A DNA stretch of 64,000 nucleotides from Acidimicrobiales bacterium (GTDB lineage Bacteria > Actinomycetota > Acidimicrobiia > Acidimicrobiales > CATQHL01). The notes under the pieces were generated by a model that was not told where the DNA came from, ran no database searches, and was given only the letters and a program-made list of their open reading frames with translations. Position 1 is the first letter of the stretch, and each line of letters begins with the position of its first letter. The stretch covers positions 1,604,596-1,668,595 of the forward strand of contig OZ220687.1 in assembly GCA_965116465.1 (NCBI GenBank), read 5' to 3'. Positions 21,860 through 50,117 of this stretch are shown here, piece by piece. A program made the translations under genes and the position numbers.

Positions 21860-21911
21860 CAGCGCGCCGCCTTCTCTCGACCGGCGGGGATGTCGAGCCG
21901 GGCGGTGGCGC

Positions 21912-23458: not shown

Positions 23459-23462
<4 letters not shown>
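21912..23462 (-). CDS. nuoM: NADH-quinone oxidoreductase subunit M (operon 2)
   Basis: 516-aa NuoM-like protein (WLPDAHTDAPT) with a 4-nt overlap with nuoL. Confidence 0.9.
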
Positions 23463-25339
<1,877 letters not shown>

Positions 25340-25351
25340 CGCCGCCCACCC

Positions 25352-25654: not shown

Positions 25655-25663
25655 TATCGGCGC

Positions 25664-25750
25664 GCCTCCGGGGCCATTGTCAGCGTGCCTGCGGGGCCAT
25701 TGTCAGCGTGCCTCCGGGGCCATGGTCAGCCTGCCTCCGGGGGCCATCAG
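25664..25750. repeat. 23-bp tandem repeat, 3 full copies plus 1 partial copy, in the nuoJ-nuoK intergenic region
   Basis: Plus-strand copies are 25664-25686 gcctccggggccattgtcagcgt, 25687-25709 (1 mismatch), 25710-25732 (2 mismatches) and 25733-25750 (partial, 1-nt insertion). Confidence 0.9.
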
Positions 25751-32738: not shown

Positions 32739-34006
32739 CAGCGGTCCACCTCACCCATGATCGGATCCACCGAGGAGATGATGGCCACGGCGTCGGCCAC
32801 CAGGCGTCCCTCCAGCAGGTACGGCAGCGCCTGCAGGTTGACGAAGCTGGGTGCCCTGATGTGCATGCGCAGCGGCTTGGGGCCGCCGTCGCTGACCATG
32901 TAGCAGCCCAACTCGCCGCGGGGCGACTCCACCGCCGCGTACACCTCGCCGGCGGGCACCTTGAAGCCTTCGGTGAAGATCTTGAAGTGGTGGATGAGCG
33001 CCTCCATGGACTCGTCGATGCGTCCCCGCGGCGGCGGGGTGACCTTCTTGTCCTGGACGCGGTAGTCGCCGGGCGGCATGCCCTCGAGGATCTGGCGCAC
33101 CAGCCGGATCGACTCGCGGATCTCGTTCAGGCGGATGGCGTAGCGGTCGAACGAGTCGCCGTAGCTGCCGCAGAGGATGTCGAAGGAGAGCCGGTCGTAG
33201 TCCAGGTACGGCATGTGGCGGCGCAGGTCCCAGGAGTAGCCGGTGCTGCGCAGGATGGGTCCCGTGACGCCCAGCGCCAGACACTCCTCCGCGCTGATGA
33301 CACCCACGCCCTGCAGGCGTTCCCGCCAGATCGGCTGGCCGGTCAGCAGCGCGTCGTACTCGTCGAGCCGATCACCGATGGGGTCCAGCAACGACAGGGT
33401 GTCGTCGCGCCAGTCGTCGGGCAGGTCGGCCGCCACCCCGCCGGGGCGGATGTAGTTGTGGTTCATGCGCAGACCGGTGATCTGCTCCAGCAGGCGCAGC
33501 ACCTCCTCGCGCTCGCGCCAGCCGTAGAGCATCATCGACACTGCGCCGAGGTCCATGCCGTTGGTGGCCTGGAAGAGCAGGTGCGAGCTGATGCGGTTCA
33601 ACTCGCACATGAGCATGCGGATCCAGGTGGCACGGGGCGGGAGCTCGAGGCCCAGCAGCGTCTCGGTCGCCATCGAGAAGGCCAGCTCGGTGAACAGGGG
33701 CGAGGCGTAGTCCATGCGGGTGACGTTGGTGGGGCCCTGCAGGTAGGTGAGCGTCTCGCCGGTCTTCTCCATGCCGGTGTGCAGGTAGCCGATGATCGGC
33801 TTGCAGCGCGTCACCGTCTCGCCGTCGAGCTCCAGCAGCAGCCGCAGCACCCCGTGCGTGGACGGGTGCTGGGGGCCCATGTTGATGATCATGCGCTCCG
33901 GCGCCGAGGGCGCCGCCGTTTGGGCCTCCGACTCGCTGAGCCGCAGCACGGGCCCGCCGGCGCGGGCGAAGACGCGGCCCACCGCGGGAGGGGCTTCGGC
34001 GCTCAC
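32738..34006 (-). CDS. nuoD: NADH-quinone oxidoreductase subunit D (operon 2)
   Basis: 422 aa ([12 protein letters not shown]...EVDR). Its stop shares 1 nt with the nuoEF ATG. Confidence 0.9.
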
Positions 34007-34506
34007 CGGGTGTCCCCGGCCGCCTTGAAACGCACGGGCACGATCCCGACGGCGTAGTCCTTGCGGAGGGGATGGCCCTCCCAGTCCTCGGGCATCAGGA
34101 TGCGGGTCATGTCGGGATGGTCATCGAAGCCGATGCCGAACATGTCGAACGCTTCCCGTTCGAGGTTCTCGGTCCCGGGGAACAGGTCGAACAGCGTGGG
34201 CAGCCGCGGGTCCTCCTCGGGGACCTGCACCCGCAGCCGCACCCGGCCGCGCGACCGGTGTGAGATGAGGGTGACCACCACCTCGAACCGTTCGGGAACC
34301 ACCGCTTCGGGGAGATCCGCCCTGGGATCGGCGCCGAGGTAGTCCACGGCGCACAGGTCGAGGCACTGGAGGTAGCCGGCGTCGCGCAGCGCGGCCACAA
34401 CCGCCAACAGCTCCGCCGGACCAGGATGCAGCACCGGTCCACCGCCGGGGTCGGTGCTGACGGGAACGCCGAGGTCGGCTACTCCCGCCGGCGAGGACGA
34501 CGCCAC
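34003..34506 (-). CDS. nuoC: NADH-quinone oxidoreductase subunit C (operon 2)
   Basis: 167-aa NuoC-like protein ([17 protein letters not shown]). Confidence 0.85.
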
Positions 34507-34510
34507 CGAC

Positions 34511-35151
<641 letters not shown>

Positions 35152-35155
<4 letters not shown>

Positions 35156-35646
35156 GAGACCGGCTCCCCAGGTGGGGCGGCCGCCGTGGGCACCGGCAGT
35201 CCCGGCTCGGAGTCGCCGGGCGGAACCCGGCGGATGGTCCCGGCGGTGGTGCGGGCCGCGTCAACGGCACCCTCGGCGCGGCGCACCCGCAGCGGACCCC
35301 AGTCCAGCGCACCCTTGCTGATGAGGTAGACGAACGACTCGAAGACGGCGAAGGAGAAGATCCCGATCGCCACCAGCCCGAAGAGCCCGAGCGCGCCGTG
35401 GGTGACCGCCCACGGGTAGAGGAACACGATCTCCACGTCGAAGACGATGAAGATCATCGCCACCAGGAAGAATCGGACCGGGAAACGCTCGGGGATCTCG
35501 GTCTGCGAGACCACGCCGCACTCGTAGGGGGCGTTCTTGGCCCTCGTCGGGCGCCGGGGGGCCAGGAGGCGCGACGCCACGAAGCTCAGGGCGCAGAACA
35601 CCACCGCCAGCACTCCGAGGGCCAGGATCGGAAGGTACTGTCCCAC
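35152..35646 (-). CDS. nuoA: NADH-quinone oxidoreductase subunit A (operon 2), with a C-terminal extension
   Basis: 164 aa; the NuoA core (YECGV, FDVE) is followed by a ~45-aa Pro/Ala-rich tail. Confidence 0.85.
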
Positions 35647-35661
35647 CCCGTCCTCCCGCCT

Positions 35662-36876
35662 CTACGCCGTGGCGCTCTCGAAGGCCTCCTGCTCCCGGCG
35701 GAACCGCTGGTCGCGCCAGTGCAGGCTGAGCACCAGGGTCAGGAAGATGAGGCCCGAGCCGATCGCGATCAGGGCCGGCACCAGGCGGAGATCGCCCAGG
35801 TTGCGGACCATCACGATGGAGAAGGTCTCGCCGCTGCGATCCGGCTCCGGCAGCGGAGGCGCCTCGCCCAGAATCTGGACCTTCGGCACCGCCGGACGGG
35901 CCTGCACGACGGCGTAGTGCGGCGGATGCGTGATGCGCGCCGAGTTGGTGATCTTGTTGGCGACCCTGGACCACGTTCCGCCCTCGGGGGCGGGCTTGCC
36001 CCCGATCTCGTAGGCATCCTCGAAGACGTACAGCGGGCTCACCGAGGCCTCCTCGCTGCCGTCGGGCAGCGAGACCACCGTCGGGACGAAGGCGAACGTG
36101 TCGCGTTCGGTCAGGAAGGCCTCGGCGCTGGCGGCCGCCTCACCGGACTCGGCGGTGGACAGCAACTCCCAACCCCTCAAATCGATGTAGCCGACCCTCT
36201 CCGCCCACTCGATGACCTGCGGGGCCGCGGCCGCCAGGGCGCTCAGGGAGAGGTTGTCGATGCGAGTGGCCTCCGCCGCAGCCTGCTCGGTGAATTTGGC
36301 CTCCAGAGCCGCCTCGTCCAGGTGGCGGGGATCCTCGGGCGACAGCAGGCTGTTGCGCTCGACCAGCCGGCCGCGGATGGTCTCGGTGTCGACGGTGGCG
36401 ACGGCTGCGCGCACCTCGTCCCGATCGGGTCCCGAGTAGTGCAGCGCCAGCGCGATGGCCCGGGGGAGGCAGCCATGCGCCGGCGGCGCGAAGGTCCAGC
36501 CGGTCTCTTCGACAGGGAAGATGCGCCCCGTGTCGCAGTTGGGATCGGGCAGGTCGCCGACCGTGGCCACATAGGCGTCCTCGATGCCGGTCCTCTCGAT
36601 GCCCGCCGGATCCGCGAACGTCCCCTCGTACTCCCACCTGGGCGATTCGCCGACGTAGCCGATGCCCTGCAGCCACCAGATGACCGCCATGATCGTGAAC
36701 CAGCCGAACATCCCCGCCAGCGCCAGGAGCGAGCCGAGGCGCACGCCGGTGTTCAGCACCAGCAGCAACCAGACCGTCCCCATCAGCAGGGCCGAGGCGA
36801 GGGCCACCGTCAGGATGCCGCGGATCTCGGGCTCCCAACTGATCCCGCCGAGGGTTACGAGGGCACCTACTCCCAT
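35662..36876 (-). CDS. Uncharacterised membrane protein (N-terminal TM helices, large soluble domain, C-terminal TM)
   Basis: 404-aa ORF with coding-like composition, lying 11 nt after the dihaem cytochrome c stop and 15 nt before the nuoA start. I recognise no family motif. Confidence 0.7.
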   Translation of the reverse strand: MGVGALVTLGGISWEPEIRGILTVALASALLMGTVWLLLVLNTGVRLGSLLALAGMFGWFTIMAVIWWLQGIGYVGESPRWEYEGTFADPAGIERTGIEDAYVATVGDLPDPNCDTGRIFPVEETGWTFAPPAHGCLPRAIALALHYSGPDRDEVRAAVATVDTETIRGRLVERNSLLSPEDPRHLDEAALEAKFTEQAAAEATRIDNLSLSALAAAAPQVIEWAERVGYIDLRGWELLSTAESGEAAASAEAFLTERDTFAFVPTVVSLPDGSEEASVSPLYVFEDAYEIGGKPAPEGGTWSRVANKITNSARITHPPHYAVVQARPAVPKVQILGEAPPLPEPDRSGETFSIVMVRNLGDLRLVPALIAIGSGLIFLTLVLSLHWRDQRFRREQEAFESATA

Positions 36877-36887
36877 GGCCCGACCTG

Positions 36888-38102
36888 CTAGAGCTGCCGC
36901 TCGTACGCCACGATGGCGGCGATCTGGGCGGGCGTCAGGATCCCCTCACCACCGTGTGCGAGGCAGAACTCGATCCGGCTGATGTACTCCAGGTCACCGG
37001 CGTCGCGGTCGGCCACGCAGGCGCCGAACGACGGCATCTGGCCCCCGCCGTCGCCCTGGCCGAAGTTCCCGTACTCCACGCCGTTCTGGCTGCCCGTCCA
37101 GATGAAGGACTCGTGCTCGTCGGCCGTGTCGAACTGCCGGGTGGTGGCGCCGCTGTTCAGCGGCGGGCCGAAGCCCCCGCCGCCGGCGATCTCCGCCGGC
37201 ACCAGCGGGTTCTGCGCGGCCACCTCGTTGGCGTCGTAGGACCATCCGGGCGTGTGGCAGCGGGCGCAGCCGTAGACGCCGCCGTCCCCTTCGTTGTTGA
37301 AGAGCAGCTCGCCCAGCCTGATCGGGTCGTCGGCGGCGTCGGCCAGGATCTGTTGGGCGGCAGCGGTGACATCGGTGTTGGAGGCGCCCGCGCCCAGCTG
37401 CGCGACGGCCATCTGCCGGGCGGTCGAGGCGATGCCGTCCTGGGCCCGCTGGCGGATCTCGGGAACGTCTATCTGCTCGTGCTCCAGGTAGACGATGACG
37501 TCGTCGATCTGCTGGGTGGTGAACGGGCCGCCGCCGGCGATGCCCCACGCCGGCATGGGCGTGTTGGGGCGGCCGTACTCCATCACGTAGCGCACCTCCT
37601 CGGTGGAGTAGCGGTAGAGGACGGCCCCAAGCGAGGGCACCTTCCATTGCACCTGCGCCAGGAAGAGCCCGTTGTTGTCGATGAGAGTGTGGTCGCGCAG
37701 CCCGCCGGGCCCATCCACCGAGCCGTGACAGGTGGCGCAGCGCTCCTCGTAGAGGTGGTGGCCGCGCTCGGCCGCCAGTTCGTCGCTGACCTCGATGAGT
37801 CCGTCGTGACGACCCGGCTCACCCAGCCAGTACAGCGGCAGGGCGATGGCGATGATGACGATGAACACCAGCCCGGCCATGAGGCCCTGGTCCAGCCGGC
37901 GCCCCTCCATCTCCTCGTCGTCGGGCAGCGGTTTGCGGTTGGGCGCCAGCTCGATCTCCGAACCGGTCTCGGCCCGGCCCACGAACCAGTTGAAGATCCA
38001 GTAGAGCAGGAAGCCGCCGATAGCCAGAACACCGATGACGGTGCCGATGGTCCGCTGGGTGGACGCCGCGAAGACACCGAGGTCGCCCAATGCAGGTGGC
38101 AT
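36888..38102 (-). CDS. qcrC: Membrane-anchored dihaem c-type cytochrome (QcrC-like)
   Basis: 404 aa with two CXXCH motifs (CATCH, CARCH), Met-ligand contexts PMPAW and QMPSF, and an N-terminal TM helix. Its ATG overlaps the Rieske TAA (TAATG). Confidence 0.85.
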   Translation of the reverse strand: MPPALGDLGVFAASTQRTIGTVIGVLAIGGFLLYWIFNWFVGRAETGSEIELAPNRKPLPDDEEMEGRRLDQGLMAGLVFIVIIAIALPLYWLGEPGRHDGLIEVSDELAAERGHHLYEERCATCHGSVDGPGGLRDHTLIDNNGLFLAQVQWKVPSLGAVLYRYSTEEVRYVMEYGRPNTPMPAWGIAGGGPFTTQQIDDVIVYLEHEQIDVPEIRQRAQDGIASTARQMAVAQLGAGASNTDVTAAAQQILADAADDPIRLGELLFNNEGDGGVYGCARCHTPGWSYDANEVAAQNPLVPAEIAGGGGFGPPLNSGATTRQFDTADEHESFIWTGSQNGVEYGNFGQGDGGGQMPSFGACVADRDAGDLEYISRIEFCLAHGGEGILTPAQIAAIVAYERQL

Positions 38103-38962
38103 TACTCGCTGGCCTCGCCGATGCAGTGCGCACCCTGCGCCTCCTGGTTGGTCGTGTTCGTCCCGATGGGCGAGCCCTGGATGATCTTGCCGGTGTCGAC
38201 GAGGAACTCACCGCGGTCGTTGACCGAGGTGGCGAAATGGTCCATGCCCCGCGGGGCCGGCCCGCCGCGCTTCTCGCCCACCTGGTTGTACTTCGAGCCG
38301 TGGCAGGGACACTCGAACCACTGCGAACTGACGCACTCCGGCACGGTGCAACCCAGGTGGGGGCACTTCCAGTACAGGGCCACCAGCCCGGCCTCCATGC
38401 CCCCCAGCACCGCCGGCGAGTAGACCTCCCGAGCCGAGGCCAGCGCCCCTTCGGGATACTCGGTCACCCACATGCGCCCTTCGGGCAGCTTCAGGAAGCC
38501 GTTCTCGTCGCGCACCTGGGTCTTGAGGCTGTCCACGGTGCCGACGTTGAGGACCGCCCCGAAGCCGGTCACGAACGGAGGCCAGAGGAAGCCCAGGACG
38601 GCGGCACCGAAGCCCGTGATGCTGAGGGTCATGAAGCCCACGATCGAGCGGTTCAGGAACTGCCGGCGGGTGACACCGACCTCCTCCGGATCGGGTGGCG
38701 TCCAGGGCTCGCCATCGTCGGCGGGGATCGCCGGCAGGTCGTCGGGCTCGCGGCGGGCCAGGACCGCGGCGCGTTCGATCTCGCGCCCGGTGGGCGCGGC
38801 GGGCTCCGCCGCCTCGGAGCGCCGGGCCAGCCGGTCGCGCAGCCGGGTGCGCCGGGAGAGCCGTCCGGTGACCGAGCGCACCTCGCGCCGGCGGTAGGCG
38901 GCGATCAGCATGATGAGGGCGGCCGCGGCCAGGATCGGGATGACGATGGCAAGAACGATCAC
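38102..38962 (-). CDS. qcrA: Rieske [2Fe-2S] subunit of a cytochrome b-type quinol oxidoreductase
   Basis: 286 aa with Rieske boxes CPHLGC and CPCHGS, an internal Tat-like TRRQFL motif, and an extra N-terminal TM helix. Confidence 0.9.
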   Translation of the reverse strand: MIVLAIVIPILAAAALIMLIAAYRRREVRSVTGRLSRRTRLRDRLARRSEAAEPAAPTGREIERAAVLARREPDDLPAIPADDGEPWTPPDPEEVGVTRRQFLNRSIVGFMTLSITGFGAAVLGFLWPPFVTGFGAVLNVGTVDSLKTQVRDENGFLKLPEGRMWVTEYPEGALASAREVYSPAVLGGMEAGLVALYWKCPHLGCTVPECVSSQWFECPCHGSKYNQVGEKRGGPAPRGMDHFATSVNDRGEFLVDTGKIIQGSPIGTNTTNQEAQGAHCIGEASE

Positions 38963-38972
38963 GGCACGTGCC

Positions 38973-39743
38973 TCAGAAGTCGAAGAACAGCCCGTCTTGC
39001 CACGGGAAGATGAAGTTGAAGCCCGGACCCCTGAAGAACGAGCCGATCATGACCAGGATCGCCCAGAACATGAGGTGCACGGTCATCAGGGACACCGCGA
39101 ACTTGCGCTTCTCGGGGGCGTTCTCCTTGTTCCGGTCGATGTAGGGGGCCAGGATCAGCAGGAACAGGGCGATTCCGGGAATGGTGACACCGGCCACCAT
39201 GGGGTGGAACATCGTCAGGAGTTCCTGCAGGCCCAGGAAGTACCACGGCGCCTTCGACGGGTTCGGCGTCTCGTTGACGTTCGCCAACTCCAGCAGGGGG
39301 GCGTTCACGAAGACCGAGAAGATCAGCAGGAACGCCGTGATGAACAGCGACGCCACGAACTCGCCCAGCAGGAGGTGCGGCCAGACGTGCACCCTGTCCT
39401 GCGGCATGGCCTTGACGTCCTGGATGGAACCCGACTTGACGACGGTGAGAAGCCGCTGGGTGTGCCCGCCGGGACCGGTGGGCAGGCTCGGCGGAGCCGG
39501 GGCGACAGGCCCACCGGGCGCTGCCGGGGCCATGGCGGCCTGCTCGGAGGCCGAGCGCGAGCGATCCAGCAGGTGTGCCGGGATCTTCTCGGTGTCGCCG
39601 GCGTCGGGCGCGTCCGCCGCGGCCTCGGCCGGCGGCGCAGCGTCGGCGGCGGGCGCCTCGCCTTCGGGGGTCGCGGGGGCGCCCTCCAGCCGCTCGCGCG
39701 CCTCCTTGGCGCGGCGCAGCAGGTGTTCGGGGATTTCGGTCAT
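38973..39743 (-). CDS. Cytochrome b C-terminal domain protein (b6f subunit IV-like) with a long N-terminal cytoplasmic extension
   Basis: 256 aa with a PEWY-box variant (KAPWYFLGLQELL) and 3 TM helices. The ~95-aa N-terminal Ala/Pro-rich region contains two copies of an IPxHLLxR motif. Confidence 0.8.
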   Translation of the reverse strand: MTEIPEHLLRRAKEARERLEGAPATPEGEAPAADAAPPAEAAADAPDAGDTEKIPAHLLDRSRSASEQAAMAPAAPGGPVAPAPPSLPTGPGGHTQRLLTVVKSGSIQDVKAMPQDRVHVWPHLLLGEFVASLFITAFLLIFSVFVNAPLLELANVNETPNPSKAPWYFLGLQELLTMFHPMVAGVTIPGIALFLLILAPYIDRNKENAPEKRKFAVSLMTVHLMFWAILVMIGSFFRGPGFNFIFPWQDGLFFDF

Positions 39744-39767
39744 GGCTCGTCGATCCCTCGCACCGGC

Positions 39768-40529
39768 CTACAGCGGTCCGGAGATCCCGCCGTCCTTGCG
39801 GACCCGCCAGAAGTGGACCGCAAGGAAAATGATCAATACGAAAGGTAACATCAAAACGTGTAGGACATACCACCGCAGGAGCGTGTCGGTGCCGATTTCC
39901 ACGCCGCTGAGCAGCACGAACCGCACCTGGTCGCCGAACACCGGGGTGAAGCCCATCATGTTGGTGCCGACGGTGACGGCCCAAAGCGCCAGCTGGTCCC
40001 AGGGCAGCAGGTAGCCGGTGAACGAGAGCAGCAGCGTGAGCGTCAGCAGGATCACGCCGATCACCCAGTTGAACTCCCGCGGCGGCTTGTAGGCGCCGTG
40101 GTAGAAGACCCGGGCCATGTGCAGGAACACCGTCAGCACCATCAGGTGGGCGCCCCAACGGTGAATGTTCCGCACCAGGAGCCCGAAGGCCACCTCGGTC
40201 TGGAGGATGTAGATGTCGTCCCAGGCCTGCGCGGCGGTGGGCCGGTAGAAGAACATCAGGAATATGCCGGTCACCGTCAGCAGGATGAACAGGAAGAAGC
40301 TGAGCCCGCCGAGGCACAGCGTGTAGCTGACCCGCACACCGTGGCGCTTCACCTTCACCGGGTGCAGGTGGTACAGGACACTGTTCATGATGACGTAGGA
40401 CCGGTTCCGCGGGCTGTCGGTGTAGCCCTTGCGGAAGATCGACCCGGGCCGGAAGATCGACACCCAGGCCTGTGACCCCTGGACCTGGCCCATGAGATCC
40501 GACGCCTTGCCGCCGAGCTGGGTGCCCAT
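39768..40529 (-). CDS. qcrB: Cytochrome b6-type subunit (N-terminal four-helix haem-binding half of cytochrome b)
   Basis: It has the haem-ligand helices ([26 protein letters not shown]; [24 protein letters not shown]) and ends [10 protein letters not shown], like the split Bacillus-type b6. The start is uncertain: ATG 40529 or TTG 40568. Confidence 0.85.
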
Positions 40530-40599
40530 GCGGCGAATGTCGTCTGCTGTCGGGAGCCTGGGGGCCAACTCGTCCGCCTCTCTCGTCGCCGTTCCGGGA

Positions 40600-41016
40600 T
40601 TACGCCAGGCGCATGCCGTAGCCGTAGCCGTAGCTGACCACGCGCTGGTGAGGATCGCCGTCCGGCGGCGCGTCTCCAACCTTGCCCATGATGATGACAC
40701 CGGTGGGGCAGCGATCCACGCACAGGGCGCAGCGCGTGCAGACGTCGTCGTCGATCGTGAAGATCACGTGATCGCTGGGGTCGGCACCCGGGCGCTCGGT
40801 ACCGATCGCCATGTCGATGGCGTCGGGGGTGACCATGTGGATGCACTTCCACGGGCAGATGTCCACGCAGCCCTCGCACATGATGCACTCGGACTGGTCG
40901 ATGTGGATGAACTGCTTGGGCTTGACGGCGGCCGAGAGCCAGTCGGCGTCGACCTCGGCGAGGACGTAGTCGTCGCGGAACTCCGGCATCGGGGGATTGG
41001 CGTCGTTGGAAGCCAT
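40600..41016 (-). CDS. 2x[4Fe-4S] ferredoxin-domain protein
   Basis: ATG at 41016 gives 138 aa with motifs [12 protein letters not shown] and [12 protein letters not shown]. The start shares 1 nt with the upstream gene's stop (TGATG). Confidence 0.8.
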
Positions 41017-41612
41017 CAGGCCTCGACTCCTTCTCGTACCAGCGGTCGGCCGTAGCGGGACGCCGGCTCCGGCACCTCCACGGGCGGGCGGTCTCGGTTC
41101 TGCCACATGACGTGGATGGCAATCTGGCCCACCAGGAACAGGCCGTAGATGACCGTGGCGACGACGTCGCGGGCGACTCGATAGGTCAGATCGAACGGAA
41201 GTGCCCAGGTCAGCAGGTTCTGTCCCGGTGCCCACCAGCCCGGCAGCGCCGGACCGACCAGCATGCGGTCGGCACGCCAGTTCAACTCGCTGTCGGCGAA
41301 CACCAGCCACCAGTGCGGCACCACGCCGTAGATCCAGAACATCAGGAAGAACGCCAGCGTGGCGCCGACCATGGCGCCGCCCCAGGTCACGGGCTCCCCC
41401 GGCTCCCGGCGGCGGGCGTACCAGAGAACGCCGTAGATCCCCAGGCAGCTCACGACCCACGAGGACGTGAAGGCCACATTGAAGTACGGCGGATCGGCGT
41501 CCCGGGTGATTCCCAGCCAGAGGGCGAGCACGCCGAACAGCAGCACCGAACTGCCGACCATGGCGCGGGTGAACTTCTTCGCCGCTACATCGATCGCCCG
41601 GATTTCAGCCAC
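41016..41612 (-). CDS. Uncharacterised polytopic membrane protein, first gene of the Rieske/cytochrome b cluster
   Basis: In-frame GTG at 41612 is preceded by GAGGGAG plus 4 nt and gives 198 aa with about 4-5 Trp-rich hydrophobic segments. No family recognised. Confidence 0.65.
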   Translation of the reverse strand: MAEIRAIDVAAKKFTRAMVGSSVLLFGVLALWLGITRDADPPYFNVAFTSSWVVSCLGIYGVLWYARRREPGEPVTWGGAMVGATLAFFLMFWIYGVVPHWWLVFADSELNWRADRMLVGPALPGWWAPGQNLLTWALPFDLTYRVARDVVATVIYGLFLVGQIAIHVMWQNRDRPPVEVPEPASRYGRPLVREGVEA

Positions 41613-41684
41613 GCTGCTCCCTCTGGTTGACCAAGCGATGTTAGCCACGCAGGCCGCCCGAGCACACACACGGAACAAGTGCGC

Positions 41685-41702
41685 TCGTGAAAGTGCTCAC
41701 AA
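41685..41702. promoter_or_regulatory. Rex-operator-like palindrome TCGTGAAAGTGCTCACAA
   Basis: It matches the remembered Rex consensus TTGTGAA-N4-TTCACAA at 12 of 14 specified positions. It lies in the divergent intergenic region between the respiratory cluster (start 41612) and cytochrome c (41815). Confidence 0.4.
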
Positions 41703-41814
41703 GGAGTCTAGCCTGCTGTCGAGATCCCCACGGCGGCCGCGAGAGCGGCCGCACCGGCCCGCATTTGGCCGACGCTAGGATCTCGCCGGCGGCCGCCACC
41801 GTGCACGGAGGACC

Positions 41815-42636
41815 ATGACCGAAGTACCCGAGTATCTGCTCGAGCGGTCGCGTCAGCGACGCTTGGAGTTGACCGGCGAGGGCGGAACGGCCGAAGGTTC
41901 CCCCGCCGAGGGTGCCGCAACCGCGACGCCGGCCACCACCGGCGGCGGCGCGCCTGCGGCGGCGGCTCCGGCGCGCTCACCGTTGCCGGCGGTGCCACCG
42001 GCGGCGCCACCCCCGCCTCCGGCGCCGCCCAAGCCCTGGGTGCAGGCCGCGCTCGGGCGCAACAAGATCCCCTACTGGGTGATGCCGGTGCTGCTGTTCC
42101 TGCCCATCTGGGTCTTCATGTACGTCGGGACCCTGGAGGATCCCACCCGGGCCGCAACCGGCATCGTGGCCGACGGGGCCGGGATATACGCGCAGGAGTG
42201 CGCTACCTGCCACGTCGCCTCGGGTGCAGGGGGTGGCACCGGGCCCCGGCTGAACGACGGCGAAGTCCTGCTGACGTTCCCCGACGACGCCGAGAACCTG
42301 GGGCTGGCCCAGCATGTCACCTGGGTGGCCATCGCCACCGACGGTACGGGAGAGGGCAACCCGTACGGCTCGTCCGAGCGAGGCCGGGTGGCCGGCTGGT
42401 TCGCCAACATGCCCGGCCACTACGACGAGCTGACCGGCACGGAGATCCTGGCGGTGGTGCTCTACGAGCGGATCACCCACGGCGAGAGCGACGTGGCCGC
42501 CACCCTGGCGCCGCTCGTCGACGAGCTGCTGGCCGCCGGAACCCTGGAACTTCCCGAGCACTTCGACGAGAACGTGACCCCCGCCGACGTGGCGGGGCTC
42601 CTGGCACCTCTCCTGGCAGCCGGCGACGGAGCCTGA
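41815..42636 (+). CDS. Membrane-anchored monohaem c-type cytochrome
   Basis: 273 aa with one CXXCH (CATCH), one central TM helix (IPYWVMPVLLFLPIWVFMYV), and an N-terminal TEVPEYLLERSR motif. Confidence 0.8.
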   Translation: MTEVPEYLLERSRQRRLELTGEGGTAEGSPAEGAATATPATTGGGAPAAAAPARSPLPAVPPAAPPPPPAPPKPWVQAALGRNKIPYWVMPVLLFLPIWVFMYVGTLEDPTRAATGIVADGAGIYAQECATCHVASGAGGGTGPRLNDGEVLLTFPDDAENLGLAQHVTWVAIATDGTGEGNPYGSSERGRVAGWFANMPGHYDELTGTEILAVVLYERITHGESDVAATLAPLVDELLAAGTLELPEHFDENVTPADVAGLLAPLLAAGDGA

Positions 42637-43883
42637 CGATCGCCCACCGCCACGATCTGGTCGTCGTCGGCGGTGGACCAGCCGGCGCGGCCACCGCCTA
42701 CTGGGCGGCACTGCAGGGGCTGGACGTGCTCGTGCTGGAACGCAAGCAGTTCCCGCGCGACAAGACCTGCGGTGACGGCCTGACCCCCCGGGCGGTGAAG
42801 CAGCTCGCCGACATGGGTCTCGGCGGCGAGATGGAGTCGTACCACCGCTTCGGCGGCCTGCGCGCCGTCGCCCACGGCCACACCCGGGAGCTCCCCTGGC
42901 CCGAGCACCCGATCTTTCCCCGCTACGGCTACGTGGTGCGGCGCAGCACGCTGGACGCCGCGGTGCTGGATCACGCCCGCAAGGCCGGGGCGCTGGTGTG
43001 GCACGGGGCCGAGGCCACAGAGCCGCTGCTGGCCGGCAGCCTCTGCCGGGGGGTGCGCGTCGTGGATCGCACCTCCGGTGAGCAGAGCGACGTGGAGACC
43101 TCGTACCTGGTGGTCGCCGACGGGGCGAACTCCCGGGTCGGACGAGGGCTGGGCTGCCGCCGCGAGCGCACCTGGCCCCAGGGAATGGCGATCCGCACCT
43201 ACTTCGAGAGCCCCAACGGTGACGATCCCTGGATCGAGAGCGCCCTGGACGTGCGCGACCGCAACGGCGCCACCCTGCCCGGCTACGGCTGGATCTTCCC
43301 CCTCGGGGACGGGACCGTGAACGTGGGCATCGGCCTGCTCACCTCCTACCGGGACTGGCGGAGCGTGAACACCAGCCACCTCATGGAGGAGTGGGCCTAC
43401 GCCGCACCCGAGCGCTGGGGTCTCGACCCGACGGCGCCGCTGGCGCCCCCGGTGGGGGGCCGCCTGCCGATGGCCGGCTCGGTGAACCCCAAGGCGGGTC
43501 CCAACTTCCTGGTGGTGGGCGACGCGGCGGGCTCGGTGAACCCGTTCAACGGCGAGGGGATCGATTACGCCTACGAGACGGGCCGCCTCGCCGCCGAACT
43601 GGTGGCCGAGGCGGTGATCTGCGACGACGGCCTGGCCCTGTCCCGCTACCCCGAACTGCTGGAGAGCACCTACGGGGCCTACTACAAGGTGGCCCGGCTC
43701 TTCGCCTACGCCATCGGCCGGCCCCGCCTCATCAGCCGCCTCGTGCAGTTCGGGATGCAGTCCCAGACCCTCATGGAGCTGGCGCTGCGGATCATGGCCA
43801 ACCTCATGCACGAGGACGACCCCGGCGCAGCCGAGTACATCTACAAGACCGCCGCCAAAGCCGCCTGGCTCTGGCCCGACTGA
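42633..43883 (+). CDS. Geranylgeranyl reductase-family FAD-dependent oxidoreductase (candidate isoprenoid-quinone side-chain reductase)
   Basis: Conserved sequence begins at DLVVVGGGPAGAATA (the FAD fold), with GDAAGSVNPFNGEGI further on. No ATG/GTG/TTG is available between the upstream overlap and the FAD motif. A CTG at 42633 forms a CTGA overlap with the cytochrome c stop. The start is uncertain. Confidence 0.8.
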   Translation: MTIAHRHDLVVVGGGPAGAATAYWAALQGLDVLVLERKQFPRDKTCGDGLTPRAVKQLADMGLGGEMESYHRFGGLRAVAHGHTRELPWPEHPIFPRYGYVVRRSTLDAAVLDHARKAGALVWHGAEATEPLLAGSLCRGVRVVDRTSGEQSDVETSYLVVADGANSRVGRGLGCRRERTWPQGMAIRTYFESPNGDDPWIESALDVRDRNGATLPGYGWIFPLGDGTVNVGIGLLTSYRDWRSVNTSHLMEEWAYAAPERWGLDPTAPLAPPVGGRLPMAGSVNPKAGPNFLVVGDAAGSVNPFNGEGIDYAYETGRLAAELVAEAVICDDGLALSRYPELLESTYGAYYKVARLFAYAIGRPRLISRLVQFGMQSQTLMELALRIMANLMHEDDPGAAEYIYKTAAKAAWLWPD

Positions 43884-44227
43884 GGGCCGGATGCGCCCGG
43901 ACGCAACGGCGGCGCTGTTCGTGCAGCCGAGATGGCTTTCGGCGAAGATCGCCTCGATGCGCTCGTTTCCGATGGCGCGGACCGCAGCGGCGCGTCGAAG
44001 TTGGGTGACTGGCATACCTCTGAGGCACATACGGCGCGCTATTGGGCGCAAACCTCGAAATGATATCTCAGCATCTATCCGAACAGATGTTGTGGCTGTC
44101 ACAGGGGTCCACTAGAGTAGGGGTACCGGTCACTGGCCCTTGCTTCGGCGGGGTCGGTGTTCCCCGACCGGCTTGTCGGTTCGGCCGACCTGAGCCCGTT
44201 CTGGATGTTGCCTTCGGGGGACGACCG

Positions 44228-45496
44228 ATGACCGATCTGGACCTCTCCACTGCCGAGTCCCGCACCGATCTGGCCGGTCGGGTTCTGGCGTCGTTCGATG
44301 CGTCGCTGGCGGGGCTGCGGGCGATGGACGGGGAGTGCTTGGAGGAACGGCTGCGGCTCGTGGGGCGTTGCGAGTCCCGGCTGGCTGCGGTGAAGGCGGA
44401 GACGATTGACGCCCTTGCCCGCCGGGATGGCGAGGCCCGTGCGGCGGACGTACTGCGCAACGATGTAAAGCAGTCCCGAGGGTCGGCCAAGCGGCAGGTG
44501 AAGGAGGCCGGACGGCTGGCGCAGGTGCCGAAGGTGGCTCGGGCTCTGGCCGAGGGGGCGATCACGCCGCAGCACGCCCGGTTGATCGCCGAGGCTGCCG
44601 AGCAGGCGCCTCCGGGGGCGCCGATCGATGAGGCCGAGTTGCTCACAGCGGCCACCGGGCAGCCTGCCGACCTGTTCGGCGCGACGGTGCGTGACCATCT
44701 CAACAAGCGCAGCGGCGACGACTTGAAGGAGCGCCGCAAGCGTCAGCGCGCCCAGCGCCGGCTCAGCTTCAAGCGCCAGCCCGACGGCATGTTCGAGTTG
44801 TTCGGCCGGTTCGATCCCCTCACCGGCAGCCGCATCGAGACGGCGATCACCGCCGCGGCGAACAAGCTCTGGCGTGACGAGGACCCCAAGAACCGCGCCA
44901 CCCCCCAGCAGCGTCTCGCGGACGCTCTCGAATCGCTCGTCACCCACGGCGACAAGGCCAAAGGAGCCGCCCAAGGCGTCGACCTGCTCGTCATGGTCGA
45001 CTACGACGTCCTCGCCGCTCAACTCGCCAATCCCCGCCTGGTTGACGGCACCCCGCTGTCGGCGCAGGAACTACTCCGCCTAGCCTGCGACGCCAACATC
45101 CTCCCGGCCATCTTCGAACAGAAGAGCCGGCCGCTGTGGCTGGGCCGCGGCAAACGACACGCCACCAAGCACCAGCGTTCAGTGCTCGCCGCCCGGGACA
45201 AGGGCTGCATCGGCTGCGCCACCTCGCCCAACTGGTGCCAAGCCCACCACGTCTGGCACTGGGAACACGGCGGCCCAACCGACATCGACAACATGTGCCT
45301 GCTCTGCAGCCACTGCCACAGCCTGGTCCACACCAACGCCGCCGACATCATCCAAGAGCCCGACGGTGGCTTCACGCTTCACCATCGGCGTCGCAGCCGA
45401 GGACCGTCGCCGGCTGGCAACGGCACCCACTATGCATCCATGTCCAACCTGCCAACAGGCAACGGCGCGGACGTCGCCCTCCCCCTTCGCTGCTGA
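44228..45496 (+). CDS. DUF222-type HNH endonuclease (13E12-repeat-like family)
   Basis: ATG at 44228 gives 422 aa with a C-terminal HNH motif (CQAHHVWHWEHGGPTDIDNMCLLCSHCHSLVH) and a long helical N-terminal domain typical of actinobacterial DUF222 proteins. Confidence 0.8.
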   Translation: MTDLDLSTAESRTDLAGRVLASFDASLAGLRAMDGECLEERLRLVGRCESRLAAVKAETIDALARRDGEARAADVLRNDVKQSRGSAKRQVKEAGRLAQVPKVARALAEGAITPQHARLIAEAAEQAPPGAPIDEAELLTAATGQPADLFGATVRDHLNKRSGDDLKERRKRQRAQRRLSFKRQPDGMFELFGRFDPLTGSRIETAITAAANKLWRDEDPKNRATPQQRLADALESLVTHGDKAKGAAQGVDLLVMVDYDVLAAQLANPRLVDGTPLSAQELLRLACDANILPAIFEQKSRPLWLGRGKRHATKHQRSVLAARDKGCIGCATSPNWCQAHHVWHWEHGGPTDIDNMCLLCSHCHSLVHTNAADIIQEPDGGFTLHHRRRSRGPSPAGNGTHYASMSNLPTGNGADVALPLRC

Positions 45497-45640
45497 AGGT
45501 CACGACCTCCAGCGGATGACCGGCCTCGCCCGGCCGAGCGAACATTCGCCGAAGTAGGGCACGCCAGGGATAGGGGCGGATCGACTGCGGGCAGAGCCGG
45601 ACGCCCAACCAGCGGTCCACGCCCGGCGCACGACGAGTGA

Positions 45641-47539
<1,899 letters not shown>

Positions 47540-47602
47540 GCGGCCGCAGGGCCCCGCTCGCCATCGCTGAACAAGCCGAACCACTCGACCGACGAGGTGC
47601 CT

Positions 47603-50067: not shown

Positions 50068-50117
50068 GCCCGCAGGCGTCTGCTGAGTAGGGGCTCGCAC
50101 CGGGGGTACCGATCACC

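What the first reader, a model, noticed from the sequence alone, without database searches (positions are those of the whole stretch)
36888..41612. Non-canonical Rieske/cytochrome b module: split b6 plus subunit IV with an added 2x[4Fe-4S] ferredoxin and an unknown membrane subunit
Seen in sequence, in minus-strand order:
- a 198-aa polytopic membrane protein;
- (TGATG coupling) a 138-aa ferredoxin with two CxxCxxCxxxCP motifs;
- cytochrome b6 (four helices, ends [10 protein letters not shown]);
- a subunit-IV-like protein (APWYFL box);
- a Rieske protein (CPHLGC/CPCHGS, Tat-like TRRQFL);
- (TAATG coupling) a dihaem cytochrome c (CATCH, CARCH).

Established knowledge: the textbook actinobacterial complex is qcrCAB with one long unsplit cytochrome b. 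Split b6/SUIV is the Bacillota/heliobacterial/cyanobacterial layout. Neither layout includes a soluble dicluster ferredoxin or this extra membrane protein.

Inference: this may be a variant quinol-oxidising or quinone-reducing complex with an additional low-potential Fe-S entry or exit. A ferredoxin-linked or bifurcating branch is one possibility.
Basis: partly seen in the sequence, partly recalled or inferred. Interest (0 to 1): 0.66.

Follow-up and report, generated by a model that had tools for sequence, protein, structure and literature searches.

The report
Ferredoxin-bearing cytochrome b6 respiratory complex
This operon encodes the cytochrome b6-type "complex III" of deep-branching Actinomycetota, which always carries an extra two-cluster iron-sulfur protein and a small membrane protein, so a central respiratory enzyme probably has an undescribed electron side-door on its cytoplasmic face.

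Summary
All six genes lie at the stated coordinates, with the stated motifs and overlapping stop/start codons.

The core is a split Rieske/cytochrome b6 complex. It has the CLGG haem-ci motif and the APWY quinol-site motif. This "APWY clade" was already described, including in an Acidimicrobiia genome (Kao & Hunte 2014).

What I did not find described is the conserved pair upstream: a 3-4-helix membrane protein (here called memX) and an acidic 2x[4Fe-4S] ferredoxin with no signal peptide.
- In 87 related loci (Acidimicrobiia, Nitriliruptoria and other Actinomycetota MAGs) the ferredoxin gene is followed by b6 in 81/81 cases with enough sequence.
- It is followed by SUIV in 63/63, Rieske in 60/60 and cytochrome c in 58/58.
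- The order holds even at 33-48% ferredoxin identity.
- A memX homologue sits directly upstream of the ferredoxin gene and nowhere else in these loci.
- A seventh membrane protein follows the cytochrome c gene.
- b6 carries a basic N-terminal extension on the cytoplasmic side (n-side) that is nearly invariant and seen only in these loci.

Most likely the ferredoxin is a bound n-side subunit wired to haems bH/ci. Physical association and the direction of electron flow are inferred, not shown.

Verdict: new variant of a known kind, moderately high interest.

The parts
41016..41612 (-). memX: a 198-aa, 4-helix membrane protein of an unnamed family, and the putative membrane anchor or partner of the ferredoxin. 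Its conserved core motif is W..A..(TM)..P[SH].W.Y..D. Its conserved C-terminal tail (S.YGRPL) is predicted to be cytoplasmic.
   Evidence: - ORF and RBS.
- No Pfam or NCBIfam family.
- 194 homologues, all Acidimicrobiia-type.
- AF2 model has pLDDT 83 and four helices; no PDB fold match (best E 2.1).
- An HMM built from it hits 56 ORFs among 4272 in 87 loci. All 56 lie directly upstream of the Fd gene.
40600..41016 (-). Acidic 138-aa 2x[4Fe-4S] ferredoxin-like protein. It has no signal peptide and no TM helix. It has family-specific N- and C-terminal extensions.
   Evidence: - Pfam Fer4 models.
- All 8 Cys ligands are invariant across 33 diverse members, and there is a near-invariant ninth Cys (CPWxC).
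- pI 4.3, net charge -13, no TM helix.
- At least 78% identical in the top 120 clusters.
- Always followed by b6.
- Best fold matches are PscB, FwdF, NdhI and PsaC, from a low-confidence model.
39768..40529 (-). Cytochrome b6: four helices, four His haem ligands, the CLGG haem-ci motif and the C-terminus GISGPL. It also has a basic N-terminal extension of about 35 aa on the n-side (W.SIFRPGS.FRKGY.D..R.R).
   Evidence: - Best PDB matches are chloroplast and cyanobacterial b6 (E 2e-47), against QcrB at 1e-22.
- CLGG is found in 77 of 82 b6 hits, and the misses are truncated sequences.
- The extension is nearly invariant in all loci.
- NCBIfam ExtP scores 303.6 bits, with the model starting at residue 47.
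38973..39743 (-). Subunit IV homologue with three TM helices and the APWY Qo motif. It has a cytoplasmic N-terminal extension of about 110 aa: the motif TEIPEHLLRRA, then an Ala/Pro-rich linker, then a second HLLDRS copy.
   Evidence: - Pfam Cytochrom_B_C.
- APWY in 64/64 loci.
- N-terminal motif.
38102..38962 (-). Rieske [2Fe-2S] protein with CPHLGC/CPCHGS and a TRRQFL Tat-like motif. An extra N-terminal helix and a cytoplasmic loop precede that motif.
   Evidence: - Pfam Rieske.
- Best PDB sequence matches are the Kuenenia (anammox) Rieske proteins 9rk4/9rk3, followed by b6f PetC.
36888..38102 (-). Membrane-anchored dihaem cytochrome c (CATCH, CARCH). Its start overlaps the Rieske stop in TAATG.
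   Evidence: - ORF, Pfam and TAATG.
- Only faint similarity to QcrC (E 0.004).
- Present after Rieske in 58/58 loci.
35662..36876 (-). Seventh cassette gene: a 404-aa protein with N-terminal helices, a large acidic domain and a C-terminal helix. No known family. It starts 11 nt after the cytochrome c gene and ends 15 nt before nuoA.
   Evidence: - ORF and spacing.
- No Pfam or NCBIfam hit.
- The HMM finds a homologue directly after the cytochrome c gene in 41 of 55 loci.
41815..42636 (+). Divergently transcribed, membrane-anchored monohaem cytochrome c. It is a probable downstream electron carrier. Its cytoplasmic N-terminus carries the same TE[IV]PE[HY]LL.R[AS] motif as subunit IV.
   Evidence: - Pfam Cytochrom_C.
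- Conserved divergent neighbour in Acidimicrobiia loci L001-L004 and L091.
- Shared motif.
41613..41814 (.). Divergent intergenic region of 202 bp, the presumed promoter region for both transcription units. It contains a 24-nt imperfect inverted repeat at 41715-41790.
   Evidence: - No sigma-70 consensus and no Rfam family.
- Inverted repeat.
- Function not tested.

Best explanation
The region is the operon for the menaquinol:cytochrome c oxidoreductase ('complex III') of non-Actinomycetia Actinomycetota.

The known part is a split Rieske/cytochrome b6 enzyme of the APWY clade with a haem-ci site and a dihaem cytochrome c.

The lineage-specific part consists of conserved extra subunits:
- a small 3-4-helix membrane protein (memX);
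- an acidic 2x[4Fe-4S] ferredoxin-like protein;
- a seventh membrane protein.

Proposed mechanism:
- The ferredoxin is not a free carrier. It is a peripheral subunit on the cytoplasmic side (n-side).
- It is held by memX and by the basic N-terminal extension of b6, and perhaps by the long N-terminal tail of SUIV.
- Its two clusters form a wire between the cytoplasm and the haem bH/haem ci pair at the quinone-reduction site.

I commit to the inward direction as the more likely. Low-potential cytoplasmic donors (reduced soluble ferredoxin or a ferredoxin-dependent dehydrogenase) feed electrons through the clusters to haem ci and menaquinone. This would be the function long proposed for ferredoxin and haem cn in chloroplast b6f, while the normal Q cycle continues.

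What is shown:
- gene content, motifs and invariant cluster ligands;
- absolute synteny and conserved translational coupling;
- the co-occurring b6 extension;
- absence of an export signal.

What is inferred: physical binding, position near haem ci, and direction of electron flow.
For: **Synteny.**
- In 87 loci found through the ferredoxin or memX, the ferredoxin gene is followed on the same strand by b6 in 81/81, SUIV in 63/63, Rieske in 60/60 and cytochrome c in 58/58 loci with enough sequence.
- The order is identical in 58/58 loci.
- This holds although Fd identity falls to 33-48%.
- The most divergent member found, P0366, is also flanked by a memX-like gene and b6.

**Specificity of memX.** A memX HMM hits 56 of 4272 ORFs in those loci. 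All 56 lie directly upstream of Fd, usually overlapping or within a few nt of it.

**Selection on redox function.** All eight cluster Cys are invariant. Within Acidimicrobiia, Fd (77-87% identity) is the second most conserved product after b6.

**Location.** Fd has no TM helix and no Tat or Sec signal, so it is cytoplasmic. Its net charge is -13. The b6 N-terminal 66 residues have pI 11 and charge +8.

**Co-occurring feature.** The b6 extension W.SIFRPGS.FRKGY.D..R.R is nearly invariant in every Fd-bearing locus. It is absent from cyanobacterial b6 and from the ExtP model.

**Haem ci.** The CLGG motif is present in all complete b6 sequences.

**Respiratory context.**
- nuo operon directly downstream, with its own NuoI.
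- Cytochrome oxidase and cytochrome c maturation genes next to the cassette in L005-L007.
- No internal terminator.

**Fold.** The Fd model resembles PscB, NdhI and PsaC, which are dicluster subunits bound to the n-side of membrane complexes (weak).

**Precedent.** N-side Fe-S chains are modelled on anammox Rieske/b complexes (PMC12954380). Cytochrome b fused to 4Fe-4S domains is reported in PMC4122944.
Against: - There is no direct evidence of binding.
- No genuine Fd-b6 or memX-Fd fusion exists. The apparent fusions in the databases are frameshift artefacts.
- The Fd model is of low confidence (pLDDT 66).
- Between classes, Fd (median 39% identity) diverges faster than b6 (71%) and SUIV (55%). 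That is somewhat unexpected for a tightly integrated core subunit.
- The direction of electron flow rests only on general thermodynamics and analogy.
- Cluster potentials are unknown.
- Related APWY/haem-ci complexes, such as Geobacter ExtOPQ, work without such a subunit, so it is not needed for basic turnover.
Confidence: 0.45

Rival explanations
1. Same architecture, opposite direction. The ferredoxin subunit is an exit. The low-potential electron from quinol oxidation (bL to bH/ci) is passed out to the clusters to reduce a cytoplasmic acceptor such as soluble ferredoxin, or NAD(P)+ through a partner. This would be quinol-based electron bifurcation, as proposed for the anammox Rieske/b complexes. 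Alternatively the complex runs in reverse, as suggested for the APWY clade.
For: - The Rieske protein's closest solved relatives are the Kuenenia Rieske proteins of exactly those complexes.
- The anammox models place a 4Fe-4S chain on the n-side next to haems bN/cN.
- Kao & Hunte argue that APWY-type complexes may work in reverse.
- The same synteny evidence applies as for the main explanation.
Against: - No FAD or NAD(P) domain is encoded in the cassette.
- In L005-L007 the cassette lies next to cytochrome oxidase and cytochrome c maturation genes, and in the window next to the nuo operon. This suggests an ordinary respiratory complex III that needs its Q cycle. That it is the only complex III in these genomes was not tested.
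- Moving an electron to the n-side works against the membrane potential. Reaching typical 4Fe-4S potentials from menaquinol is therefore harder (established bioenergetics, not tested here).
Confidence: 0.15
2. The ferredoxin and memX are not electron-transfer subunits of the working enzyme. They would instead be assembly, maturation or regulatory factors. Examples are a reductant supply for covalent haem-ci attachment (no CCB system is known outside cyanobacteria and plants) or a redox/O2-sensing module controlling the complex.
For: - How haem ci is attached outside cyanobacteria and plants is unknown (PMC5600118).
- All Fd-bearing b6 sequences keep the CLGG Cys.
- A Rex-like regulator lies next to the cassette in L005 and L007.
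- Between classes, Fd and memX evolve faster than the catalytic core.
Against: - The Geobacter ExtOPQ cluster, whose cytochrome b model this b6 matches, contains no such genes. From general knowledge, haem-ci-bearing Bacillota also lack them; that was not tested here.
- Fd and memX are the first genes of the operon, are translationally coupled, and Fd is conserved at structural-subunit level within Acidimicrobiia.
- The invariant b6 n-side extension suggests a permanent interface.
Confidence: 0.15
3. The ferredoxin is an ordinary soluble electron carrier for unrelated enzymes, and memX is an unrelated small membrane protein. They are merely co-transcribed with the b6 operon by historical accident.
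For: - Fd has no TM helix, and its Pfam and NCBIfam matches are generic.
- No fusion proteins link it to the complex.
Against: - Gene order is absolute, without one exception, across loci whose Fd is only 33-48% identical.
- Family-specific extensions and signature (DY..VD..WL, CPWxC) are conserved.
- The family is compact. Only 47 representatives at 50% clustering reach E<=1e-30, many of them fragments, and every member whose locus I examined lies in this context.
- memX homologues are found only directly upstream of Fd in the examined loci.
Confidence: 0.1

Closest known systems
'APWY clade' of split Rieske/cytochrome b complexes (Kao & Hunte 2014, PMC4122944)
   Same: - Split cytochrome b plus SUIV.
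- APWY quinol-site motif.
- CxGG haem-ci motif.
- The clade was reported in Ilumatobacter (Acidimicrobiia), the Rubrobacter group, Planctomycetes, Chloroflexi, Nitrospirae, deltaproteobacteria and Symbiobacterium.
- No member has been characterised biochemically.
   Different: - That work analysed cytochrome b and Rieske sequences only. It mentions no ferredoxin or memX subunit.
- The motif here is T[FYL]CLGG, whereas WCMGG is typical of the clade.
Cyanobacterial/chloroplast cytochrome b6f
   Same: - The b6 here is its closest solved relative (E 2e-47). The four His ligands, the haem-cn Cys and even the GISGPL C-terminus are shared.
- SUIV is split off.
- Ferredoxin or FNR donation to haem cn on the n-side has long been proposed for b6f.
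   Different: - No cytochrome f and no PetG/L/M/N; a dihaem cytochrome c is present instead.
- Probably menaquinone rather than plastoquinone (not tested; a MenJ-like gene is adjacent).
- The ferredoxin here is encoded in the operon.
- b6 has an extra N-terminal extension.
Anammox (Kuenenia) Rieske/cytochrome b complexes Kuste4569-4574 and Kustd1480-1485
   Same: - A Rieske/b6-type core with an added cytoplasmic-side Fe-S chain next to haems bN/cN.
- Their Rieske proteins are the closest solved relatives of the Rieske protein here.
   Different: - The anammox n-side subunit is a large FAD/NAD(P) oxidoreductase with four clusters, and its p-side partners are multihaem/HAO proteins.
- Here the n-side protein is a bare 138-aa dicluster protein with a small membrane partner, in aerobic heterotroph lineages.
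Geobacter ExtOPQ (Cbc6) module of the extHIJKLMNOPQS cluster
   Same: The b6 here passes the NCBIfam ExtP equivalog cut-off (303.6 against 290 bits). SUIV weakly matches ExtQ. The core is Rieske + b + small membrane subunit.
   Different: - The ext cluster has multihaem cytochromes, a porin and a rhodanese, and no ferredoxin or memX.
- The ExtQ match is below its cut-off.
- The ExtP name would be a mis-annotation here.
Actinobacterial QcrCAB (bcc) complex of Mycobacterium and Corynebacterium
   Same: Same phylum, and a dihaem cytochrome c. From general knowledge (not tested here), QcrCAB also uses menaquinol and its Rieske protein has extra N-terminal helices.
   Different: - QcrB is unsplit (about 540 aa) and much more distant (E 1e-22 against 1e-47 for b6). 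From general knowledge it also lacks haem ci.
- Similarity to QcrC is only faint.
- From general knowledge, qcrCAB encodes no Fe-S protein besides the Rieske protein.
PscB / PsaC / NdhI-NuoI: dicluster subunits bound to the n-side of membrane complexes
   Same: - 2x[4Fe-4S] fold with an insert and terminal extensions.
- These are the best fold and sequence matches.
- They act as a two-cluster wire between a membrane complex and soluble ferredoxin.
   Different: - The matches are weak (E 1e-4 to 1e-2, from a pLDDT-66 model).
- Complex I here has its own NuoI.
- No reaction centre is present.

Membership tests
Rieske/cytochrome b (bc-type) complexes | Cytochrome b four-helix bundle with four His ligands for two b haems | tested here: met
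   Pfam Cytochrome_B scores 5.8e-46. In the alignment to b6 structures, IHRW, FLHM, VLH and AVHF align with the four His ligands.
Rieske/cytochrome b (bc-type) complexes | Rieske [2Fe-2S] subunit with CxHxGC...CxCHGS | tested here: met
   CPHLGC and CPCHGS are present. Pfam Rieske scores 1.6e-8. PDB matches are b6f and anammox Rieske proteins.
Rieske/cytochrome b (bc-type) complexes | Quinol-oxidation (Qo) motif PxWY-type in the C-terminal half of cytochrome b or in SUIV | tested here: met
   APWY is present in the window and in 64/64 related SUIV sequences.
b6-type (split, haem ci) subgroup | Cytochrome b split into a four-helix b6 and a three-helix SUIV | tested here: met
   There are two ORFs separated by 24 nt. 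They match Pfam Cytochrome_B and Cytochrom_B_C respectively.
b6-type (split, haem ci) subgroup | CxGG motif for covalent haem ci/cn | tested here: met
   YTLCLGG aligns with the haem-cn Cys35 region of b6. CLGG occurs in 77 of 82 b6 hits, and the misses are truncated. Actual haem binding cannot be tested here.
Cyanobacterial/chloroplast b6f proper | Cytochrome f (PetA) and the small subunits PetG/L/M/N | tested here: not met
   The c-type subunit is a class-I-like dihaem protein (Pfam Cytochrome_CBB3). Nothing like PetA is in the cassette.
Actinobacterial QcrCAB (bcc) | Single unsplit QcrB of about 540 aa; NCBIfam bc1_QcrB_actin | tested here: not met
   The cytochrome b here is split. bc1_QcrB_actin scores 115.6 bits against a cut-off of 500, and bc1_QcrC_actin scores 18.5 against 200.
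Bacillota QcrABC (b6c) | SUIV fused to a C-terminal cytochrome c domain (QcrC) | tested here: not met
   SUIV ends after its third helix and has no CxxCH. The cytochrome c is a separate gene after Rieske.
APWY clade (Kao & Hunte 2014) | APWY Qo motif plus split b plus CxGG | tested here: met
   All three features are present. The clade definition comes from PMC4122944. Placement on a phylogenetic tree was not computed.
Geobacter Ext (selenite/tellurite) operon | ExtP and ExtQ equivalogs together with ExtH-N/S (rhodanese, porin, multihaem cytochromes) | tested here: not met
   ExtP is just above its cut-off (303.6 against 290 bits). ExtQ is far below its own (51 against 150). No multihaem, porin or rhodanese genes lie in the cassette.
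Anammox-type Rieske/b complexes with an n-side NAD(P) reductase | FAD/NAD(P)-binding Fe-S subunit encoded in the cluster | tested here: not met
   The only extra Fe-S protein is the 138-aa dicluster ferredoxin. No FAD or NAD domain occurs in any cassette product.
2x[4Fe-4S] bacterial-type ferredoxins | Two CxxCxxCxxxCP motifs in a Fer4 dicluster fold | tested here: met
   Both motifs are present and invariant. Pfam Fer4, Fer4_21, Fer4_10 and Fer4_7 score above their cut-offs. Cluster content itself cannot be tested here.
NuoI/NdhI (complex I subunit I) | Passes the NuoI family cut-off and is the only such gene for the nuo operon | tested here: not met
   TIGR01971 NuoI scores 41.4 bits against a cut-off of 113. 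A separate bona fide nuoI lies between nuoH and nuoJ at about 26403-27020.
Bound subunit of the complex (physical membership of Fd and memX) | Co-purification, or a confident predicted interface with b6/SUIV | not testable with these tools
Only indirect evidence exists: synteny, translational coupling, charge complementarity and the co-occurring b6 extension.

The most novel reading that the evidence does not exclude
A whole branch of Actinomycetota, including abundant marine, sponge-associated and soil lineages, runs a complex III with a built-in ferredoxin port. The two [4Fe-4S] clusters exchange electrons with haem ci/bH. The same enzyme would then act both as a quinol:cytochrome c oxidoreductase and as a ferredoxin:menaquinone oxidoreductase, or as a quinol-driven ferredoxin reductase. 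This would be a natural, genetically hard-wired version of the long-debated ferredoxin to haem cn route of b6f in cyclic electron flow, and a new coupling site between low-potential metabolism and the quinone pool.
Probability: 0.3. Interest if true: 0.85.

Novelty: new variant of a known kind. Interest (0 to 1): 0.68.

Why it matters
Rieske/cytochrome b complexes are among the best-studied energy-converting enzymes. Their subunit sets are considered known for the main lineages.

Here a conserved seven-gene cassette adds three uncharacterised proteins to the b6-type core. One of them is a dicluster Fe-S protein on the cytoplasmic side. It spans at least Acidimicrobiia and Nitriliruptoria, plus many MAGs named only to phylum or class.

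If the ferredoxin is wired to haem ci, two things follow:
- It gives a tractable bacterial model for the disputed role of haem ci/cn as an entry point for ferredoxin electrons.
- It gives a simpler counterpart to the hypothetical bifurcating complexes of anammox bacteria.

It also corrects annotation. The b6 gene is liable to be named 'ExtP selenite/tellurite reduction cytochrome', and the ferredoxin 'NuoI/formate hydrogenlyase subunit 6'.

Tried and rejected
**Not a displaced NuoI.** The nuo operon has its own nuoI, and the NuoI family score is far below its cut-off.

**No fusion evidence.** Long 'memX-Fd', 'Fd-b6' and similar proteins from the representative search (P0249, P0259, P0279, P0314, P0323, P0343) are frameshifted mis-assemblies read across frames. 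They are not real fusions.

**His100 of memX is not a haem ligand.** It is invariant only within Acidimicrobiia. Elsewhere it is usually Ser.

**Fold search with memX found nothing.** The best PDB match has E 2.1.

**A pseudo-multimer AF2 run was refused.** The input was memX-Fd-b6-SUIV fused with linkers, with 8 paired rows.

**No regulatory signals found.** There is no Rfam family, no sigma-70-like promoter and no credible terminator in 34000-44500.

**Literature.** Nine full-text searches found the APWY-clade paper, the Dibrova reviews, the anammox Rieske paper and the ExtI paper. None describes a ferredoxin or memX subunit in an actinobacterial b6 complex. This is absence within the searchable open-access library only.

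**The ExtP equivalog hit is not operon membership.** The rest of the ext cluster is missing.

Full report
**1. Observation**

The window is about 70% G+C. On the minus strand it carries a tight, co-oriented gene series.
- memX, 41016-41612, 198 aa, GTG start after GGGAG.
- A 138-aa ferredoxin (Fd), 40600-41016.
- Cytochrome b6, 39768-40529.
- Subunit IV (SUIV), 38973-39743.
- Rieske protein, 38102-38962.
- A dihaem cytochrome c, 36888-38102.

memX and Fd overlap in TGATG. Rieske and cytochrome c overlap in TAATG. The remaining gaps are 10-70 nt.

Pfam confirms a Fer4 dicluster protein, Cytochrome_B, Cytochrom_B_C, Rieske and class-I cytochrome c. memX has no family. A public contig carrying the identical ferredoxin was independently called with the same gene lengths.

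- A seventh gene lies at 35662-36876 (404 aa, membrane protein, no family). It starts 11 nt after the cytochrome c gene and ends 15 nt before nuoA.
- A divergently transcribed, membrane-anchored monohaem cytochrome c lies at 41815-42636.
- The b6 carries the haem-ci motif.

**2. The core enzyme**

The b6 is far closer to chloroplast and cyanobacterial b6 (E 2e-47) than to mycobacterial or corynebacterial QcrB (about 1e-22). It keeps the four His ligands, the Cys of the CxGG haem-cn/ci motif (YTLCLGG) and the C-terminal GISGPL.

SUIV carries APWY at the quinol-oxidation site. The closest solved relatives of the Rieske protein are the two Kuenenia Rieske proteins, followed by b6f PetC. The cytochrome c has only faint similarity to QcrC.

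This is the 'APWY clade' of Kao & Hunte (PMC4122944). Those authors listed a split, APWY-type cytochrome b in Ilumatobacter (Acidimicrobiia). They noted CxGG in the clade and stressed that no member has been characterised. The split b6/SUIV layout in a basal actinobacterium is therefore already known.

NCBIfam places the b6 just above the cut-off of 'ExtP', the cytochrome b of the Geobacter extHIJKLMNOPQS cluster (303.6 against 290 bits). SUIV matches ExtQ only weakly. That cluster has Rieske (ExtO), b (ExtP) and a membrane subunit (ExtQ) with multihaem cytochromes and no ferredoxin.

**3. The extra genes are part of a conserved cassette**

memX has 194 detectable homologues, none with an informative name. 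Those with a taxon label come from Acidimicrobiia, Acidimicrobiales or Candidatus Poriferisocius.

In marine Acidimicrobiales and Ca. Poriferisocius contigs the gene order is the same as in the window. That order is divergent cyt c | memX-Fd-b6-SUIV-Rieske-cyt c-unknown-nuoABCD.

The ferredoxin is strikingly conserved. The top 120 clusters at 90% identity are all 137-138 aa and at least 78% identical.

A filter-free search of 1.84 billion representatives shows a compact family: 596 hits at E<=1e-3 and 47 at E<=1e-30, many of them fragments. The apparent fusion proteins among those hits are frameshift artefacts.

More distant members (34-48% identity: P0291, P0302, P0482) lie in the same cassette. 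That cassette is small membrane protein, Fd, b6, SUIV, Rieske, cyt c, unknown. In those loci it sits next to cytochrome c maturation genes and aa3- or cbb3-type oxidase genes.

Of these, 591 were confirmed as relatives. The 80 nearest to the distant query come from several groups:
- Nitriliruptoria (Euzebya, Egibacter, Nitriliruptor and Egicoccus lineages);
- MAGs labelled Actinomycetota, Actinomycetes, Frankiaceae or Mycobacteriales;
- one Acidimicrobiia MAG.

Across the 87 loci then in hand, the ferredoxin gene is followed on the same strand by:
- b6 in 81/81 loci with enough sequence;
- SUIV in 63/63;
- Rieske in 60/60;
- cytochrome c in 58/58.

All 58 complete sets have the same order.

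A memX HMM searched against all 4272 ORFs of these loci gives 56 hits at E<1e-3. Every one lies directly upstream of the ferredoxin gene.

The 404-aa protein has a homologue directly after the cytochrome c gene in 41 of 55 loci.

The most divergent ferredoxin found (P0366) sits on a 1.2-kb contig. It is still flanked by a memX-like gene, with a 4-nt overlap, and by b6.

**4. Properties that bear on mechanism**

*Ferredoxin.*
- It has no TM helix and no export signal, so it should stay in the cytoplasm.
- It is very acidic: pI 4.3, net charge -13.
- All eight cluster ligands are invariant over the whole family. So is a family signature: DY..VD..WL, CPWxC with a near-invariant ninth Cys, and CTRC..C..RCP.
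- Its AF2 model is only moderately confident (pLDDT 66). The best fold matches are PscB of the green-sulfur reaction centre, FwdF domains, NdhI and PsaC. Sequence search gives the same kinds of protein.
- It is not complex I subunit I. The nuo operon has its own nuoI, and the NuoI score is far below its cut-off.

*memX.*
- The model shows four helices (pLDDT 83). There is no structural relative in the PDB.
- By the positive-inside rule its conserved C-terminal tail is cytoplasmic. This is my inference from the sequence.
- The short 151-aa forms lack helix 1.

*b6 N-terminal extension.*
- In every ferredoxin-bearing locus about 70 residues precede the haem-ci Cys, against 34 in cyanobacterial b6.
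- This region contains a nearly invariant basic segment, W[KRS]S[IMV]FRPGS.[FY]R.GY.D..R.R...MN.V.YHLHP.K.KRH.
- In the window, the first 66 residues have pI 11 and charge +8.
- The segment is absent from cyanobacterial b6. It lies before the start of the ExtP model, which begins at residue 47.

*SUIV and Rieske.* SUIV has an N-terminal cytoplasmic tail of 100 or more residues in all groups. The Rieske protein also has a cytoplasmic loop.

The complex therefore has unusually elaborate and conserved n-side features that co-occur with an acidic n-side Fe-S protein.

**5. Interpretation**

The best-supported reading has three parts.
- The cassette encodes the respiratory menaquinol:cytochrome c oxidoreductase of these lineages.
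- Fd and memX are bona fide extra subunits. I estimate this at about 0.75.
- The ferredoxin acts as a two-cluster wire between the cytoplasm and haems bH/ci.

The direction of electron flow is not determined.

I favour entry, that is, low-potential donors feeding haem ci and menaquinone, for three reasons.
- The cassette sits with oxidase, cytochrome c maturation and nuo genes. It is therefore probably the main complex III, which needs its Q cycle.
- No flavin or NAD(P) module is encoded in the cassette.
- Pushing electrons from menaquinol to typical 4Fe-4S potentials on the n-side is energetically demanding.

The first point comes from the calls cited. The last rests on general bioenergetics, not on tests made here.

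The opposite direction is the main rival. It would be bifurcation, as proposed for the anammox complexes, whose Rieske proteins are the closest solved relatives. It could also be reverse operation, as suggested for APWY enzymes.

A non-catalytic role in maturation or regulation is possible but less well supported. Mere co-transcription of an unrelated ferredoxin is also possible but less well supported still.

**6. Novelty and limits**

The following are already known:
- the split b6/SUIV with APWY and CxGG in basal Actinobacteria (PMC4122944);
- cytochrome b proteins fused to 4Fe-4S domains in other clades (same paper);
- modelled n-side Fe-S chains in anammox complexes (PMC12954380).

The following were not found in nine full-text searches, in the two phylogenomic surveys I read (PMC4122944, PMC5600118), or among solved structures:
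- the operon-encoded dicluster ferredoxin with its membrane partner;
- the co-occurring b6 extension;
- the seventh gene;
- their strict conservation across Actinomycetota classes.

I therefore rate this a new variant of a known kind.

The limits are as follows.
- No physical or transcript data exist.
- Multimer modelling was not possible.
- The taxonomic labels are those of MAG records.
- Only the 80 best of at least 591 genome hits were inspected.
- The outgroup comparison for the b6 extension rests on cyanobacterial b6 and the ExtP model only.
- The literature search covers open-access text only.

Noticed in passing
window 35662-36876 (-): A 404-aa membrane protein with N-terminal helices, a large acidic domain and a C-terminal helix. 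It matches no Pfam or NCBIfam family. It is a seventh conserved gene of the cassette: a homologue follows the cytochrome c gene in 41 of 55 related loci.
   Followed up: partly
window 39743 (-, SUIV N-terminus) and 41815 (+, monohaem cytochrome c N-terminus); also L001 and L004: Both proteins start with the same short cytoplasmic motif, (M/L)TE[IV]PE[HY]LL.R[AS], followed by an Ala/Pro-rich linker. SUIV has a second internal copy (IPAHLLDRSRSA). This suggests a shared cytoplasmic docking partner. Non-Acidimicrobiia SUIV tails carry a different conserved helix (DQE.[FY]D..L).
   Followed up: partly
window 39768-40529 (-), residues ~18-66 of b6: A basic N-terminal extension on the n-side, W.SIFRPGS.FRKGY.D..R.R...MN.V.YHLHP.K.KRH. 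It is nearly invariant in all ferredoxin-bearing loci. It is absent from cyanobacterial b6, and its first part lies before the start of the ExtP model. It is a candidate ferredoxin docking surface.
   Followed up: partly
window 39768-40529 (-) and 40600-41016 (-): Annotation hazard. The NCBIfam equivalog 'ExtP, selenite/tellurite reduction operon b-type cytochrome' scores 303.6 bits against a cut-off of 290 on this b6, although the ext operon is absent. Public sources name relatives of the ferredoxin 'formate hydrogenlyase subunit 6/NuoI', 'PreA subunit' or 'DUF362 domain-containing protein'.
   Followed up: yes
window 42600-43883 (+): A geranylgeranyl-reductase family gene lies next to the divergent cytochrome c. 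It resembles MenJ: MenJ model 337 bits, below its cut-off, and the GG-reductase superfamily model above its cut-off. A gene with the same FAD_binding_3 domain occupies this position in the Acidimicrobiia loci L001-L004 and L091. This is consistent with a partly saturated menaquinone as substrate.
   Followed up: partly
window 44042-51125 (+): This stretch holds a DUF222/HNH endonuclease gene, a fused ATP sulfurylase/APS kinase, a DUF1214 protein, a sulfotransferase and an SDR. They lie between the MenJ-like gene and the haem-biosynthesis genes (hemL 51246-52553, hemB 52546-53550, hemA 55294-56553). In L001 and L004 the haem genes lie much closer, so this looks like an inserted sulfation island.
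   Followed up: no
window ~20393-35646 (-): A complete nuo operon (nuoA to nuoN) follows the cassette on the same strand with only a 15-nt gap and no terminator. nuoI lies at about 26403-27020. A single 654-aa ORF (30774-32738) lies where nuoE and nuoF are expected and may be a fusion; this was not checked.
   Followed up: partly
window 40600-41016 (-), Cys58: There is a near-invariant ninth cysteine three residues after the first CP (CPWxC). It recalls the non-ligand Cys of CPVDC in 7Fe ferredoxins. It is replaced by Ala in at least one family member (P0472).
   Followed up: no
L005 12467-13150 (-), L007 12829-13491 (-): A Rex-like redox-sensing regulator gene (Put_DNA-bind_N + CoA_binding) lies directly after the cassette in two distant loci.
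   Followed up: no
window 41715-41790: An imperfect inverted repeat (24-nt arms, 75% complementary, 28 nt apart) lies in the divergent intergenic region between memX and the monohaem cytochrome c gene. It may be an operator or a chance match.
   Followed up: no
proteins P0249, P0259, P0279, P0314, P0323, P0343 (public metagenome predictions): Database 'proteins' that appear to fuse memX, ferredoxin and b6 are frameshifted reads across adjacent genes. They could mislead domain-fusion analyses.
   Followed up: yes
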